From assembly GCA_036785375.1 (NCBI GenBank), contig JAWMAR010000079.1:2170001-2234000 (forward strand): a stretch of 64,000 bases of DNA. Direction: 5' to 3'. Positions 2,645-22,082 of the stretch are shown here, in pieces. This DNA is from Leucoraja ocellata. Its lineage: Eukaryota. The notes beneath the pieces are model-generated. The model was not told where the DNA came from, did no database searches, and was given only the letters and a program-made list of their open reading frames with translations. Position 1 is the first letter of the stretch. Every line of letters begins with the position of its first letter. The position numbers and the translations under genes were made by a program.

Positions 2645-2929
2645 CCCCAACGGATAAACAGGCCCTTCGGCCCCACCGAGTCCGCGCTGACGAGCAATTT
2701 CCCCGTCCGTCCCTCCCACATTAACACACACGCTTGGGACAATTTTACCAAAGCCCAATTAACCTACAAACCTATAGGTCTTTGGAATGTGGGAGGATGC
2801 CGAAGATCTGGGAGAAAACCCACGCAGGTCGCGAGGAGAACGTACCAACTCCGTGCAGACAGCGCCCGTAGTCGGGATCGAACCCGGGTCTCTGGCGCTG
2901 TGAGGCAGCAGCTCTACCGCTGCGCCACC
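2645..2929 (-). mobile_element. tRNA-derived V-SINE (HE1-like), well preserved
   Basis: Minus strand reads GGTGGCGCAGCGGTAGAGCTGCTGCCTCACAGCGCCAGAGACCCGGGTTCGATCCCG (A and B boxes), then a central conserved domain and a CR1-like tail (GGGCCGAAGGGCCTGTTT). Confidence 0.88.
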
Positions 2930-13742: not shown

Positions 13743-16419
13743 GAAAGAGAGCTGGTAATAAGATGTGAGAGTACAGAAAATGATTCCAGAGGAATTATAG
13801 ATTGGTGCAGTAAATTTTAATTGTCCAAAATCGTCAGAAAAAAAAGCTGAATTCTATAAATCTGAAATAAAAATGCTGTTTATCGGAAACTGATGAGCAC
13901 AATTTGTCTGGAAGGCTGTGATGCCCAGTTGGAAAATACAGTGTTTGCATTCATTGAAAAGTGGAAATAGGATGAAGAATTAAGGCAAAAGCAACAAAAA
14001 ACACTGGATCTTATTTGTGGACAGAAGATAAGTGTTCCACAAAGTGGTCATCCAATTGTTGGGGATGAATTGGAAGAAGTACGATTACATTTCTGCTTCA
14101 GCTGGAAAGGAGCACAGTACACAGGGAGGATGTGGAAGACCAGGTGGTGCTGGTGTTTCTTCTGCAATTGCATAGGAAGAGGAGAGAGAGACTAGTTGCA
14201 CTACTGCCTCTTGAGGTACTTGACCTTTTAAAATATAAAATGGGGAAGAAAAGGGGTGGTCTTTGAAATGACAATTGTTGAATATCAAGAGTTGTGGTGG
14301 AAATCAAATCCTGTCTTTGTCCTTGAAGTGAGGAGAAAGAGTTAGCAGAATAACTTATCTTAGAACTATTTACCACTTAACAAACATGGATAATAGCAGT
14401 TAAAGATAATAACTCAGCTCCACCCATTCCAGCAATTAGGTATGGGTAGCAAACTTGAACTTGTCAATGATGCTCAGAACTGAAAGCAAGCAGAGACAAA
14501 GCAGAATAAAAGGATTTAAGGAGGGAGTTCCTACAAAAACCAAAACGAATAAATTCAGGGCTCAATGAATGATACTGGCACGAGAGCATGAAATATATCT
14601 CAGGAATCAAAGGAAGAGTTTAAAGAAGTGGGGTAATGACTGGAAGAAACCCTATAACTGTTCTTTATAGTATCAAATAATTATATTTATTGATGTTTAT
14701 CATGTAATGGGGATATTTCATTAATGTTGGAGCTTGTGTCACCGTAATATTAGGATAAAAACAGCTGTTTGCCTCTGGGAGGCTAACATTCATTAGAACA
14801 TTCAGCAATATAACAGCTAATATTACAATAGAAAGTTATACATTTCCTCTTTTCCATTTTTATTTGTTTTAGTCATCCATAAACGTTAATTATGCAGATT
14901 TTTTGTCAGTAATCAATAGTGTTAATCCCATGTAGCAGATCCAGATGGTAGATTGAAACGTGGGTCCATTGTTAGAAAAATGCCCAGTCATGACACCTCC
15001 TCTACTAACCCACCAGTCGCAATCCATTTAATTTCCATATTTGGATCAACTTCAGATTTTCAATTATTTATCAGACAAGTGGGAACTGGGTGGTGCAGTG
15101 GTGTTGGTGGTCTTTCATCTTTATACCCAAGTTTGAATCCATCACAATTCATAGGATTAAAGTCTCTTCTGCTTGTAGAAAAATAAATTCAGGCTGTTTC
15201 AACACAGACCAACTCCTAGTAAGAAAACATTTGTCACTTTTCAGCATCGCAGTTTTAATCCAGAAATGTATAGGGTGTCGATTATGAGGGATGGATCACA
15301 ATGTTGTTCTGGTGCAGTAGCACATACTTGTCTGAGACGATTGGGGAAGGGGAGGGGGGATTGGGGTAGGGTCAATACTCTGCATTTTCCACTTCCAGAA
15401 ACTTAAACAGTCTGTGTCTGCATCCAGCAAGACCAGGATGTCATCCATTCACAGGTTGATTAGTGACAAATAATATTGAGACTTTTTATATGTGAGAAAA
15501 TGAGTGTGTCCTTACACATTTCCTCTTCACACTCAATCGCATTGCTGTTACACTCCACCACCAACCCTTCCTCCATCCTATCCCAGCACCCTGGGGAGTT
15601 TATCGCTGAACAGAAAGCTACATAAATACTGTAACTGCAAGGACAGATGTGAAGGTGGGTGTTCTGCAGCTACCGATTCTCCATTCTCCAAAGTCTGCCA
15701 CCTACTAGGCTTAAGTAAGAAGTGTGATGCAATGCTGTCCAGCTATCTGGATTAGTGCATTGTACCTTCCAAGAAGATTGGAGGCCAATGGTAGGCTACA
15801 TCATGAATGATTAATATCACATGCACCACCTTAAACATCATTGCTTCTGCCAGCAACATAACAGGGCTACAGCTACCATATGATATCCCTCAGGATATTT
15901 TATTTGATGGTGCACCCCATATTCATCATCCTGAAAACTTAGAAAACAGGGGAAGCAAGTGCATGGAATTACCTACCTCAAATTTCTCCAAGTCAGTCAA
16001 TTGGACATTTACCTATTTTCTTTCCTTATTGTGTAGTGCGTATATTGAATGAGCTGCCAGAGGAAGCGGTAGAGGTAGGTACAATTATAATGTTTAAAAG
16101 ACATTTGTACAGTTTAAGAGGGATATGGGCCAAAAGAAGGGACTGAGACTAGAAAAGGTGAGGGAATCTTAGAAAATAATTTTGTCAGTTTTGTTTATGA
16201 CATCCCAAATGGCTAGATAACTGGGCTACCTGTAGTAGATACAAAATAAGAGATGAAGAACTTTCCATGTTTGCTTCTTTGGAAATTCTTCAATATGCCC
16301 CGCCATCTCACATCCTGGAAGAGGGTAAAGTATTAGGTAGTACAGGTATTAAAAAATTTGCTTCAGCGTGTTCATGGAGATTTCATAATTCCTTGCCTCA
16401 CCCCGAGTACTCTGCTCCA

Positions 16420-16870
16420 ATACCCCAGTTCTCACTCTGACCGATAAGTCAGTAGAGCTGAGAGGTCAACCAGCACTTCAGTCAACAGTTAGCTTTCCAA
16501 CCCCACTACTGAGTTTAGTGCAGTATAAAGGAAGTAGCCGTACTGTCAAAGGCCGAGTGGTCAACTTCTGGTCCTATTTCTTATTTTCTGTCTTTTCTCC
16601 GGGGCATTAAAATATCAGTTGGCGCAATTTCAAAGGGGAGGTATCTTGAGACCAAAATTCACCCTGCAATCAACATCGCCAAACATATTTTTCCCAGGCT
16701 AGGGACGTGAAATGTTTCCTTCTCCAGATACTGCCCGACCTAGTAAATATCGCCAGTAAGTCTGGTTCTTTATCATAATACACATTGTTAATCCATTATC
16801 ACATTTCTGACTTCTGTATTGCAATTACTTCCAAAAAAAAAGTGGTTGCGTGCTTTGGGATGTGAAAGGG
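16420..16870 (+). mobile_element. Degenerate Deu-domain SINE (SacSINE1/AmnSINE-like) remnant
   Basis: Resembles the Deu-SINE layout from memory (..TAAAATATCAGTTGGCGCAATTTCAAAG..CAATCAACATCGCCAAA.. and tail TTACTTCCAAAA..GTGCTTTGGGATG). Related sequences occur at ~46130, ~61800 and ~53850. Highly diverged. Confidence 0.45.
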
Positions 16871-17134
16871 ATGAATCCAATGTTGTAATGGGTTGGACCT
16901 GCGCGGACTGAAGCGGAGTATCCGAGGCTGGAACCTCGGCGCTCAAGGGCGATCAGCGTGTCAGTGAAAACCCGATCCTCCAGTCCAACAGAAGGAGAGG
17001 CTGAAACCGTGCTAATAGGCACTTTGCGGCTTACTTCTTTGTATAATAATTTCTGCTACGCAAAAAAAAAATTGTGGTCAACGTTTGCAAGAAAATCTCT
17101 GGTGCGCTAAGAGTTAAGAAACTGGAAACCTTAT

Positions 17135-17250
17135 TTGCGCAACAATCAGTACAGATCTGAGCCGCGCCAAAATGTCTAGACTACCACATGATTACAGACA
17201 GCCAATGGCTGAGATGTAACCTAGGAGGCCCAGTGTGTTGTAAAGAGAGA
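17135..17250 (+). promoter_or_regulatory. SMAD6: SMAD6 upstream promoter module (Smad1/5 GC element + SBE palindrome + E-box + CCAAT)
   Basis: TTGCGCAA 17135-17142; GCCGCGCC 17161-17168; 5-nt spacer; GTCTAGAC 17174-17181; CACATG 17185-17190; CAGAC 17195-17199; CCAAT 17202-17206. About 850 bp upstream of the ATG in a CpG-enriched region. Confidence 0.7.
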
Positions 17251-18019
17251 GAGTGAGAGAGAAAATCCACACAGTGCAGTCTAACTGTCCGTACAGGGTG
17301 CACGGAGCGGACCCGCTGAATCTACTCTGCAACTCACTCCTGTCTATATTTGATCTTTTTAATAACTTGGGATTCTTGTATACGCCTGTAACTGGCACGT
17401 TGCATTGGTGGTCTGCAGTGTGCATTACTGGAAAGAATCGAAATTACTCAAGATCTCGCTTGCAATTTTTTTGGATCTATTACAGCGGAGGGAAAAGAGC
17501 ATTTGAAGACTGCAGCTTTGAAGAAAAATCAAGAGGTGTTTTGAGAGAGGGGAACGGGGGCCAGTACATTGGATAGGAATTGCAAATCCCGCAGAAGAAT
17601 TTTAAATATATATATTTCTGCCCTTTCTCTGTGCATTGCTTTTCTGGATGTGATAGTTTAGTGCGATTTTTTTGTATTGGTTACTGTTGCAATTTTTGTT
17701 TTGCAGTGGGTACTGTTGCAGATTTTTACTCCAGTACCCTTTGCACAGTACCCTTTTATAGCCGAATGTTGCAGATTGGTGAACTGTGTAGGTGTGATCT
17801 GGTCCCGGAGCTGCCTGGCTGTGCTGGTGCACGGCTCTCTCCCCGGCTTGATGCCGTCTGATCTCCCTTTTTAAAAATCCCCTTCCCTCTTTCCCCCTCC
17901 CACCCCCTCCTCCCAGGAAGAAGGCGAGAGAGAGAGGGGGGAGAGACAGGACAAGGGTGCTTTCTGAAGCTGCGGGGTTATAAATTGCACTCCCCGGATA
18001 TCGCGATTATAATCGTCGC

Positions 18020-18437
18020 ATGTTCAGATCCAAACGTTCGGGCCTTGTACGGCGACTTTGGCGAAGCCGGGTAACGGGGAGCAATGGGCAGGAGACGGAG
18101 GATTGGAGCGACCCGGCCGGATCGTTAAACGAGCTCAAGTCAGTAACGCATTCGCTGCTGAAGAGACTGAAGGAAAAGCCCCTGGAACTGCTGTCTCAGG
18201 CGGTGGAGAGCAGAGGCGGACTGCATACTGCTTGTGTCCTAATGGCTAGGAACGAAGTGAGGGTTGGCAAGCAGACCCTGGCCCCCCAGCTCTTGCTTTG
18301 TAGACTTTTCAGGTGGCCTGACCTCAAGCAGCTCTTCGAACTCAAGAGGCTTTATCCTTGCGAGGGTTTTTCCAGGAGCGCGGACCACGCTACTGTTTGC
18401 TGCAACCCCTATCACTTCAGTCGGCTGTACGGCCCAG
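18020..18437 (+). CDS. SMAD6: SMAD family member 6, coding exon 1 (N-terminus and MH1-like domain)
   Basis: [17 protein letters not shown] start (SMAD7 has MFRTKRSALV); [43 protein letters not shown]. Donor CAG|GTGAAC at 18438, phase 1. Confidence 0.96.
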
Positions 18438-20914
18438 GTGAACTTTTTAATCTTTCTTTCCCCCATCCCCCTCTCCCATTCACACATTTAAAATCCCCGA
18501 GGGATTCACCACCTTTGTGCAGTTGCATTCGTGTTAAGCTCTCTTTTGGAGAGAGCGGCGTGTTGTTGGGTGCCTCGCTTGCCACGGGGTTTCATTTTTT
18601 TTCGGCTAGAAGTTAAACAGCTACAGAACCTATCTTGGGGTTGCAAGTGAAAGGCTCCCATTTGAACCTCCACCACCAGGTTTTGAGAGGCCACGTGAGC
18701 ATCTCAGTGCCTGGGCGCCGAGTCTATTTATTTTTAGCACATGGACCTAGTATGAGCCAGCCCGCCACAAATGTCACATTTCTTTGGAAATGATTCCGAG
18801 CCTACAGTTTAACGTAAATTATGTGTCAGTATATTACCCCCCCCCTTCCGAAAAATACTCTAAGATTTATATGACACTCAGTCTCGAGGATCATATTTTC
18901 CATAGTTTTACAAATGCCATTTTGTGAAGTCAAAATCAAAATGTTTATTAAAAAAAAATAGGAAAAGTGCATCTAACAATATACAGTTTGTAGGAATGTG
19001 CATTTGATTTTGTAAACAGATTAGGATAAATTATTTAACGTACATAAATAAATGGGAATTTATCTCGTTTATAGGCCAGGCTATATTTCATTCACGAGAG
19101 CTGGAGTTTTCATTCATTACAGAGATGTACATTTCAAACCATTTGTAAATTGGTTGTCTGTCTCACTCATTCATCAGGTTTCAACAGATGTATCCCAGAC
19201 AGGTAATGACAGGGCTGGGCAACAGGTGAAACTTGATGTCCTTCGTCTAGATTAGAGGGGTATTTGGGGGGAGGGGGAGATGGAGAATGATATTTCGACA
19301 CTGGGCAATCTATGAAAATCTGATCACTCTGAGTGATTGAAATGAAACGGGGTATGCGGCCCCAGGCGTTTCAATACACTTTTTGTGCATTTTCTTCCCA
19401 CAAGCAACACTAAGACTGAAACCATGAAACTGTCAACAGCATGTCTTAATAAATAAATGTTTTAAAAAAATGTCCCAACAGACGGGATCTGGTGGGCTAC
19501 CTAATTTAATCTATGTCAACGCCTCGTCGGACCAGGCATTGGGTTTGCAGAGGTTTTCACAACACTGGATTAGAGTAGGATTTTGGTTTCAAAGTTTTTT
19601 TTTCCTGTAACCTTTATTTATTGCTTATGTGGAAAGGATTATTTTTATTTTTGTGAACACCCCAATATGCAATGACCTTGGTGAAATTTAATCTGAGTTT
19701 CAAAAAAAAAGAATATATTTAAGTTTAGAATTTAATTACTGACCATTTCATTATTCAAGTCACCATTTTACAGACGCTTTTAATAATATTTAAAAAATAT
19801 ACTTAATTTTCACAAGGCACATTGAGATTAATTCACGGGTGCTCTCCGCAATACTCGAGGATGTAAAGGGGTTCGAGTACTTGGGATATGCATGCCAACT
19901 AACCTGAAGATTGTCTATTCAAAAATGCCCACTCACTATCTCCATCCTTGAGACTCCTTAGTTGGCAGAAGGCGTGTTGGGTTGGAGGGTGGGGGCATGG
20001 CAAAGCGGGTTGCAAACGATTCATTTTTTTTTTAAGTCTCACCTTAAACCGTAACCCAGGAATACCAATAAGACGACCGATATATATATATATATATTGG
20101 GGCAGTTAATAGCGAACATTTATGTTTAAAAATCATGAGTATGTTATATTTTGGCCCAATATAAAGGAACTACTGTCTCTTAATAAAACAGCCTTGTCTC
20201 AAGTTCTGTTGCATTTTTACAAATAGCTAAGAATTACTGATGCGTGACGCGATAACCTTTTTATGTTACCGATTCAAGCTATCGGGCAGTTTGGACTGCA
20301 TTGTTAGGCGAATCGGCCAGTTTTAGGTCCTTGCACTCACATCGTGTACACGCAAATGTCGCTTTTTTTTAATGTGAAAATCCGATCATTTGAGTGGCAG
20401 TTATTTTCGTTTTGTTTCGTCCTTAGTACACTTGGATTTCTTAGTCTGTGAGAAGTGGCTAGGCTCTTTCACCTGGCCGCGCCTTTTCACGTGGTGTTCC
20501 CAGAAGCTCCCTTTTTAAGGAATTCCCCACTGTCTAAACGGTTTGTTTAAAACTCCCAATTGATTACCAGAACCCCAGCGAACGCGACTGAAATATTTCT
20601 CCTCTCCCTCTCTGTCTCTCTGTCCTTGTGGGAGGAGATCAGATCTGGAATCATCCCTTTGAAATGAGATCGATTTCAACTCGTTTTTTTTCTCCTTTTT
20701 TCCCCTAAGAAGTTCCAAAGCTATTTAGGTGAAGGAGTGGCAATAATATGCAGTTTGCATATGCCTGGCGCCAGCCTGGCTCCTCATTCATCTGACGACT
20801 GAATCTGGGCAATTACTGCATGCTCACTCTCCACATTTAAACCTTCAAGACGCAGGCAGGATTTTTTTTTCTCTTCACTTTTTCTTTCTGTAATTCCCAT
20901 GTCCTCGTTTTCAG

Positions 20915-20971
20915 ATTCTCCACCTCCTCCTTACTCCAGATTCTCTCCAAATGACGAAGAAAAGCCATTGG
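20915..20971 (+). CDS. SMAD6: SMAD6 coding exon 2 (57 nt, PY motif)
   Basis: Acceptor TTTTCAG, translation (D)SPPPPYSRFSPNDEEKPL, donor G|GTAAGT. Matches SMAD6 ESPPPPYSRLSPRDEYKPL; phase 1-1. Confidence 0.96.
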
Positions 20972-22013: not shown

Positions 22014-22082
22014 AATGCACAGTGTCCTACACGGAAACAGAAGCCACCGATTCCCCAAATATCACGCCTGGAGATTTCTCAG
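22014..22082 (+). CDS. SMAD6: SMAD6 coding exon 3 (69 nt, linker)
   Basis: Acceptor TTCCATCAG, translation (E)CTVSYTETEATDSPNITPGDFS, donor CAG|GTAGG. Matches SMAD6 STLSYTETEATNS..PGEFS; phase 1-1. Confidence 0.94.

What the first reader, a model, noticed from the sequence alone, without database searches (positions are those of the whole stretch)
17135..17206. SMAD6 upstream module with a SMAD7-style SBE palindrome, 3-bp spacer and E-box fused to a BMP element
Seen: within 30 bp, GCCGCGCC-N5-GTCTAGAC-TAC-CACATG, flanked by a perfect C/EBP palindrome (TTGCGCAA), a further CAGAC and CCAAT. Knowledge: a GC element 5 nt from GTCT is the Smad1/5-Smad4 BMP-response geometry. The perfect GTCTAGAC palindrome followed after 3 bp by an E-box is the TGF-beta element described for the mammalian SMAD7 promoter (Smad3/4 with TFE3/USF). 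Inference: this SMAD6 may retain an ancestral I-Smad feedback module predating the SMAD6/SMAD7 duplication and respond to both BMP and TGF-beta/activin.
Basis: partly seen in the sequence, partly recalled or inferred. Interest (0 to 1): 0.7.

Follow-up and report, generated by a model that had tools for sequence, protein, structure and literature searches.

The report
Ancient Smad feedback promoter, SMAD6/SMAD7 shared
This short stretch in front of a cartilaginous fish's SMAD6 gene is a promoter element already published as conserved from humans to corals; the same element also lies in front of the sister gene SMAD7, where human and mouse work ties it to TGF-beta, so it likely is the ancestral switch by which TGF-beta/BMP-family signals turn on their own inhibitor.

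Summary
The motifs are all present at the stated places. The gene is SMAD6. The element is already published: Frith & Ni 2023 (PMC10735318, Fig. S21) show this 'Smad6 promoter' segment in human, chimaera, many bilaterians and two corals, labelled CEBP, E2F, Smad, E-box, CCAAT. So it is not special to this fish, and it is far older than the SMAD6/SMAD7 duplication. My pattern scan found it independently upstream of echinoderm and coral inhibitory Smads (8 of 13 hits). What I did not find in print: the same module, in the same order and spacing, lies upstream of SMAD7 in this genome (75% over 64 nt), and the published human SMAD7 TGF-beta probe fits it. Frith & Ni never mention SMAD7. The GC-site-to-SBE spacer is 5 nt in 16 of 16 readable published rows; the SBE-to-E-box spacer is 3 or 4. 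The GC site fails the strict BMP consensus, and E2F is a rival. Ligand response of this copy is untested.

The parts
17135..17148 (+). C/EBP-type palindrome TTGCGCAA plus conserved CAATCA tail
   Evidence: a TT[AG]C[GT][CT]A[AT]C site lies 39-41 nt before the SBE in 10 of 10 I-Smad copies and 0 of 5 chance hits; labelled CEBP in PMC10735318 Fig. S21
17161..17168 (+). GC-rich site GCCGCGCC (hexamer CGCGCC; reverse strand GGCGC); likely Smad MH1 GC half-site, overlapping an E2F-type site that runs into the spacer
   Evidence: labelled E2F in Fig. S21; GGC as minimal Smad5 GC site in PMC4605309
17169..17173 (+). 5-nt spacer of fixed length and variable letters
   Evidence: 5 nt in 16 of 16 rows of Fig. 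S21 that read contiguously in the extracted text (9 of 25 rows were split by PDF extraction and not counted)
17174..17181 (.). Perfect Smad-binding palindrome GTCTAGAC
   Evidence: invariant in alignment A2 (partly by construction of the search) and in Fig. S21; Smad3/4 SBE per PMC11063908
17185..17191 (+). E-box CACATG(A), 3 nt after the SBE; CACGTG in SMAD7 and corals
17195..17199 (+). Extra CAGAC; not conserved, probably incidental
17200..17208 (+). CCAAT box (AGCCAATGG)
   Evidence: CCAAT 27-29 nt after the SBE start in 10 of 10 I-Smad copies, 0 of 5 chance hits; labelled CCAAT in Fig. S21
17260..17271 (+). 12-mer AGAAAATCCACA shared with ray SMAD7 at a similar place downstream of the module
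   Evidence: one copy in the window, one in the 10 kb SMAD7 stretch
17275..17280 (+). Likely transcription start region (initiator-like TGCAGT; consensus recalled)
   Evidence: contigs of two probable RNA runs from two studies both begin at 17279 with no loose end, a third begins at 17315; weak hint only, contigs cannot show a start
18020..18437 (+). SMAD6 coding part of exon 1
   Evidence: probable RNA contigs of 3 runs leave at 18437 and continue with exon 2 letters
20765..20781 (+). Intron-1 candidate canonical BMP element (TGGCGCC palindrome with 3' flank), with a look-alike in ray SMAD7 intron 1
   Evidence: whole-intron similarity not significant (35 of 200 shuffles reach it)
20915..20971 (+). 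SMAD6 exon 2 (PY-motif region)
22014..22082 (+). SMAD6 exon 3 (limits approximate); the MH2 exon lies beyond the window at G000:C79:2238638-2239183

Best explanation
This is the proximal promoter module of SMAD6, shared with SMAD7 and with echinoderm and coral inhibitory Smads, and it likely works as a negative-feedback switch: signal-activated R-Smad/Smad4 complexes would bind the GTCTAGAC palindrome and the GC site 5 nt before it, helped by a bHLH factor on the E-box and by C/EBP and NF-Y, and so switch on the pathway's own inhibitor. Shown here: the anatomy, the gene identities, the paralogous copy at SMAD7, the invertebrate copies. Shown in the literature for the human SMAD7 copy only: Smad3-dependent binding to a probe of this core and loss of activation on E-box mutation; TFE3 as Smad3 partner on SMAD7 and Smad4-Ski repression of its promoter at rest (review). 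Inferred: that the SMAD6 copy does the same, that the GC site is read by Smad1/5 and adds BMP input, and that the start site lies about 100 nt downstream.
For: Paralogy: 75% identity over 64 nt, at -890..-828 (SMAD6) and -866..-803 (SMAD7) from the ATG, same orientation; local score 41 against 0 of 300 shuffled queries reaching it, max 34. GCG-N7-GTCTAGAC-N3-CACRTG has 2 matches in the 3.44 Gb genome, the two promoters, control 0 (pattern built from both, so it shows only that nothing else matches). A profile built from 6 invertebrate copies (found with that pattern) scores 36.3 at SMAD6 and 32.2 at SMAD7, next best 15.3. Metagenome scan: 8 of 13 hits lie upstream of I-Smad coding sequence; all 8 carry the unsearched C/EBP-type site and CCAAT at matching distances, 0 of the other 5 do. 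Named best hits place them in echinoderms and stony corals. Human SMAD7 probe reads GCG-N7-GTCTAGAC-N3-CACGTG. GC-to-GTCT spacer 5 nt in 16 of 16 readable published rows while strict GCGCCAAA (E2F) is kept in only 8 of 16 (read); 5 nt is the favoured GC-SBE/SBE spacer in Smad1/5 ChIP-seq and in the fly brk silencer, whose GCGAC matches SMAD7's. A related species has 0 listed substitutions in 17120-17300 against 15 in the 420 nt upstream (p=0.008). Zebrafish smad6a and smad7 are both BMP targets.
Against: No functional test of this copy. The GC hexamer fails GRCGNC/GGCGCC at position 1 in 10 of 10 copies. A strict E2F site is present in 6 of 10 copies and is the published label. The mapped mouse Smad6 BMP element starts with the same 8 letters but has no GTCT 5 nt later, and Smad1/5 also binds a -57 kb Smad6 enhancer, so BMP input to SMAD6 has other known routes; a canonical GGCGCC lies in intron 1 here. 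Genes with the 5-bp composite are not always BMP-regulated. In one fibroblast study, deleting the SMAD7 SBE did not affect induction by YAP/TAZ loss, which ran through the adjacent AP-1 site. The substitution deficit is not significant for the 91-nt module alone (p=0.085) or against all other non-coding flank (p=0.064), and 26 of 28 differences were listed. GC+SBE without the E-box is not specific: 18 genome matches, control 35. No smad6/smad7 name was found in the supplements of the sea anemone pSMAD1/5 ChIP paper (may reflect naming).
Confidence: 0.75

Rival explanations
1. Single-branch element: only the SBE palindrome and E-box respond (TGF-beta/activin, Smad3/4, or Smad4-Ski repression), the GC site is an E2F site, and BMP reaches SMAD6 through other elements such as the intron-1 GGCGCC or distal enhancers.
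For: E2F label in Fig. S21; strict E2F site in 6 of 10 copies and 8 of 16 published rows; GC hexamer fails the BMP consensus; other BMP elements known or present.
Against: E2F letters are lost in 4 of 10 copies and 8 of 16 rows while the GC core and the 5-nt distance stay; SMAD7's C-to-A change breaks the E2F consensus (recalled) but falls on the free position of GRCGNC (recalled; brk silencer).
Confidence: 0.3
2. Constitutive core-promoter scaffold (C/EBP, E2F, bHLH, NF-Y) conserved for basal expression; the palindrome matters little for ligand response at SMAD6.
For: Four of five motifs are general promoter sites; the element sits near the likely start site; 12 of the 25 published deep elements are promoters.
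Against: The palindrome is the most invariant part from human to coral, sits before the pathway's own inhibitor, and is functional in human SMAD7.
Confidence: 0.12
3. SMAD6 and SMAD7 copies converged on similar motif sets rather than descending from one element.
For: Only about 64 nt align; both genes face the same selection for feedback.
Against: Same order, orientation and spacing, near-equal distance to the ATG, shared non-motif letters and a shared downstream 12-mer; the single-copy invertebrate genes carry the module, and vertebrate I-Smads form one clade (98/97), so the pre-duplication gene had it.
Confidence: 0.03

Closest known systems
'Smad6 promoter' conserved segment, Frith & Ni 2023 (PMC10735318, Fig. 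S21)
   Same: Same element: CEBP, GC/E2F, Smad palindrome, E-box, CCAAT in the same order; the chimaera row matches this ray through the GC site, spacer and SBE.
   Different: The paper has one human and one chimaera row, no SMAD7 mention in text or supplement, labels the GC site E2F, and does not discuss spacing or ligand response. The ray has a 3-nt SBE-E-box spacer, chimaera 4.
Mammalian SMAD7 promoter TGF-beta response element (SBE + E-box; probe in PMC5889486)
   Same: GCG-N7-GTCTAGAC-N3-CAC[AG]TG-A core; ray SMAD7 carries the whole module.
   Different: SMAD7 has GCGAC and CACGTG where SMAD6 has GCGCC and CACATG; mammalian SMAD7 has an AP-1 site after the E-box that the ray SMAD6 lacks; function is shown for SMAD7 only.
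Bipartite BMP elements GGCGCC/GRCGNC-N5-GTCT (Id2, ID3, fly brk silencer)
   Same: GC-rich site exactly 5 nt before GTCT.
   Different: Hexamer is CGCGCC, not the palindrome; the SBE is a full palindrome and is followed by an E-box.
Mouse Smad6 proximal BMP-responsive element (Ishida 2000, as cited in PMC4605309 supplement)
   Same: Begins with the same GCCGCGCC.
   Different: No GTCT 5 nt later, no palindrome or E-box in the 28 nt; listed at -1906. Probably a separate element; relation not testable here.

Membership tests
SMAD6 orthologue | Protein groups with SMAD6, apart from SMAD7 and the third I-Smad | tested here: met
   Top three hits named SMAD6 (97, 81, 64%); MH2 tree puts it with chondrichthyan SMAD6 (91/88), C370 with paddlefish SMAD7 (100/100), C1979 with shark 'SMAD6-like' (100/99); 26 rows, 3 of 23 named proteins dropped for lack of the anchor motif.
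SMAD6 orthologue | SMAD3 downstream on the same strand (arrangement recalled from human) | tested here: met
   R-Smad 328 kb downstream; its four best PDB hits are SMAD3.
Frith & Ni Smad6 promoter segment | CEBP, GC, GTCTAGAC, E-box, CCAAT in order upstream of a Smad6 homologue | tested here: met
SMAD7-type TGF-beta response element | GTCTAGAC followed after 3 nt by an E-box | tested here: met
   E-box is CACATG, not CACGTG
SMAD7-type TGF-beta response element | Common descent with the SMAD7 element | tested here: met
SMAD7-type TGF-beta response element | Smad3/4 binding and TGF-beta induction | not testable with these tools
   Shown for human SMAD7; no data for this copy.
Bipartite BMP element (GGCGCC/GRCGNC-N5-GTCT) | 5-nt spacer between GC site and GTCT | tested here: met
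   16 of 16 readable rows
Bipartite BMP element (GGCGCC/GRCGNC-N5-GTCT) | Hexamer GGCGCC, GGAGCC or GRCGNC | tested here: not met
   CGCG[CAG]C in 10 of 10 I-Smad copies
Bipartite BMP element (GGCGCC/GRCGNC-N5-GTCT) | Smad1/5-Smad4 binding and BMP induction | not testable with these tools
   No binding data at this site seen.
E2F site (TTTSSCGC, recalled) | Strict consensus on the reverse strand, conserved | tested here: inconclusive
   Present in this copy and 6 of 10 held copies, 8 of 16 published rows; absent from ray SMAD7.
Structured RNA | Rfam match | tested here: not met
   0 matches in 16000-19000

The most novel reading that the evidence does not exclude
The textbook SMAD7 TGF-beta response element is the duplicate of the SMAD6 promoter module and of the coral I-Smad module: a signal-response element older than the cnidarian-bilaterian split, which reads both BMP (GC site, 5-nt spacer) and TGF-beta/activin (palindrome, E-box), with the BMP bias of SMAD6 and TGF-beta bias of SMAD7 tuned partly by single letters (GCC versus GAC, CACATG versus CACGTG). 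The third vertebrate I-Smad may have lost it.
Probability: 0.3. Interest if true: 0.72.

Novelty: new member of a known kind. Interest (0 to 1): 0.45.

Why it matters
The element itself is known as a sequence match without a mechanism. Linking it to the SMAD7 element, one of the best-dissected TGF-beta response elements, gives that deep conserved segment a tested function by proxy and dates Smad negative feedback at the DNA level to before corals and vertebrates split. It makes an old question testable with a 70-nt reporter: which ligand branch drove the ancestral I-Smad, and how SMAD6 and SMAD7 came to differ. It also points to a likely overlooked SBE palindrome in the human SMAD6 promoter.

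Tried and rejected
Third I-Smad (C1979): no module in 30 kb upstream or 10 kb downstream (best scores within shuffles; profile best 7.2; no C1979 hit); its true first exon is unmapped and the contig has frameshift-like indels, so loss is not shown. Its GTCTAGAC at +7213 lacks the flanking motifs. DNA search of the genome with 17110-17290 found only itself (too insensitive for the paralogue). One search used a pattern I mis-spaced, which missed both known sites; uninformative, redone. Intron-1 similarity between SMAD6 and SMAD7 is not significant overall. Five of 13 metagenome hits (L035, L036, L042, L044, L045) have no I-Smad and are treated as chance; L039, L040 and L043 share an identical module and are not independent; no vertebrate hit came from that scan. 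No listed sequencing run is on record as RNA. The SMAD7 start site was not placed. No Rfam match. Earlier scan findings: none. Searches for a printed SMAD6/SMAD7 promoter paralogy (passages) found none; most primary papers on these promoters are in journals not held (not held), and the figures and GitHub files of PMC10735318 could not be seen, so 'not in print' is limited to these searches.

Full report
Observation. Every motif is at the stated place: TTGCGCAA 17135, GCCGCGCC 17161, 5 nt, GTCTAGAC 17174, 3 nt, CACATG 17185, CAGAC 17195, CCAAT 17202. The composite has 1 match in the window against 0.01 expected, though the pattern came from the site. The SBE lies 846 nt before the ATG at 18020.

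Gene identity. The exon-1 protein's top hits are named SMAD6 in a ray (97%), catshark (81%) and chimaera (64%), so the window is from a cartilaginous fish, likely a ray. The genome has three inhibitory Smads. An MH2 tree of 26 rows (3 of 23 named proteins dropped) puts the window gene with chondrichthyan SMAD6 (91/88), C370 with SMAD7 (100/100) and C1979 with shark 'SMAD6-like' (100/99); all vertebrate rows form one clade (98/97). C370's best PDB hit is SMAD7 (E 3e-107). The R-Smad 328 kb downstream best matches SMAD3; SMAD6-SMAD3 adjacency in human is recalled.

Position. Contigs of two probable RNA runs from two studies start at 17279 without a loose end and splice at 18437; a third starts at 17315. 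This is a weak hint that the start lies near an initiator-like TGCAGT at 17275-17280 (consensus recalled), placing the SBE near -100 and CCAAT near -75. A related species shows no listed substitution in 17089-17354 and 15 in 16700-17088. For 17120-17300 against the upstream 420 nt p=0.008, but p=0.085 for the 91-nt module alone and p=0.064 against all other non-coding flank; 26 of 28 differences were listed.

The SMAD7 paralogue. Ray SMAD7 has the same module 821 nt before its ATG: 75% identity over 64 nt, score 41, reached by 0 of 300 shuffled queries. A further 12-mer is shared about 90-100 nt downstream. A core pattern built from the two has just these 2 matches in 3.44 Gb, control 0; without the E-box it has 18 matches, 13 of them one repeated string, control 35. 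The human SMAD7 SBE probe printed in PMC5889486 (passages read) and the mouse/human probes in PMC5918965 (passages) fit the same core, including the GCG seven letters before the palindrome. The third I-Smad shows no module in 40 kb, with the caveat that its first exon is unmapped.

Depth. One scan of metagenome contigs with the core pattern gave 13 loci. Eight lie upstream of I-Smad coding sequence: one whose best named relatives are echinoderms and seven close to a stony coral protein (three share an identical module). All 8 have the unsearched C/EBP-type site 39-41 nt before the SBE, CCAAT 27-29 nt after its start, and C at both ends of the hexamer; the other 5 have neither flanking site (alignment). 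A profile of six of these scores the ray SMAD6 and SMAD7 sites far above anything else in 124 kb.

Prior art. Frith & Ni 2023 (PMC10735318; main text parts 1-4 of 5 read; supplement parts 7-8 of 15 read plus term searches; figures not visible) list a Smad6 promoter segment among 25 deeply conserved elements. Fig. S21 has 25 rows from human and chimaera to two corals, labelled CEBP, E2F, Smad, E-box and CCAAT. It is this element, and human SMAD6 has it. SMAD7, spacer and ligand response are not discussed. In the 16 rows whose text reads contiguously, the GC-to-GTCT spacer is 5 nt in all 16 with varied letters; strict GCGCCAAA survives in 8 of 16; the SBE-E-box spacer is 3 in 8 and 4 in 5 of 13 readable rows (my reading; 9 rows were scrambled by PDF extraction and left out).

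Mechanism. Most likely a feedback switch. GTCTAGAC is the selected Smad3/4 site, TFE3 is listed as Smad3's partner on SMAD7, and Smad4-Ski represses the SMAD7 promoter at rest (review PMC11063908, passages). Endogenous Smad3-dependent binding to the human core and loss of activation on E-box mutation are reported. A GC site 5 nt from GTCT is the favoured Smad1/5-Smad4 geometry, though not sufficient (PMC3203580, passages); GGC and GTCT are the minimal MH1 sites (PMC4605309, passages and supplement file 2; file 1 not searchable). A fixed spacer length with free letters fits two linked MH1 contacts better than one E2F site, and SMAD7's GCGAC equals that of the fly brk silencer. Against a BMP role: the hexamer fails GGCGCC/GRCGNC at position 1 in 10 of 10 copies; the mapped mouse Smad6 BMP element is a different sequence after its first 8 letters (PMC2709561 passages); Smad1/5 binds a -57 kb Smad6 enhancer (PMC3615190, passages); and a canonical GGCGCC lies in intron 1 of both ray genes. 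Zebrafish smad6a and smad7 both answer BMP (PMC7728441, passages), which does not say through which element. No smad6/7 name was found in 9 supplements of the sea anemone pSMAD1/5 paper (PMC10849676, term search only). Ligand response of this copy is inferred, not shown.

Verdict. Real, important and mostly known. The addition is that the SMAD7 TGF-beta element is its paralogue and that the 5-nt spacing suggests a Smad role for the site labelled E2F. I found neither in the library searched (PMC13317027, PMC11034925 and PMC3185416 passages), which lacks most primary papers on these promoters. Interest 0.45.

Noticed in passing
window 20765-20781; G000:C370:1472111-1472127 (-): Both ray SMAD6 and SMAD7 carry a TGGCGCC palindrome with near-identical flanks 150-190 nt before exon 2, resembling the Id1/ID3 BMP elements; a POU-like TTGCATAT (label recalled) lies shortly before each. 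Only these 2 genome matches to the shared pattern (circular); whole-intron similarity not significant.
   Followed up: partly
G000:C1979:139280-156932 (L003, L019); G000:C4796 (L021): A third I-Smad gene, grouping with shark 'SMAD6-like'; exon 1 has frameshift-like indels (assembly error or decay not decided) and no promoter module was found. C4796 holds a near-identical MH2 exon (422 of 423 nt), probably a duplicate assembly.
   Followed up: partly
window 17260-17271; L002 about 2703-2714 (-): 12-mer AGAAAATCCACA shared by SMAD6 and SMAD7 just before the likely SMAD6 start site; unexplained.
   Followed up: no
L037, L038, L043, L046: Coral I-Smad genes have a second GTCTAGAC 135-137 nt after the first.
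   Followed up: no
L034 and coral loci, between the C/EBP site and the GC site: Invertebrate copies have an extra CAGAC there; the ray SMAD6 reads CAGAT and ray SMAD7 lacks it.
   Followed up: no
window 18692-18725 and 20476-20493: Intron 1 has CACGTG followed by GGCGCC-GA-GTCT, and a second GCCGCGCC four letters before a CACGTG.
   Followed up: no
G000, 13 contig places: One 19-nt string with a GC site 5 nt before GTCTAGAC recurs 13 times, probably part of a repeat family.
   Followed up: no
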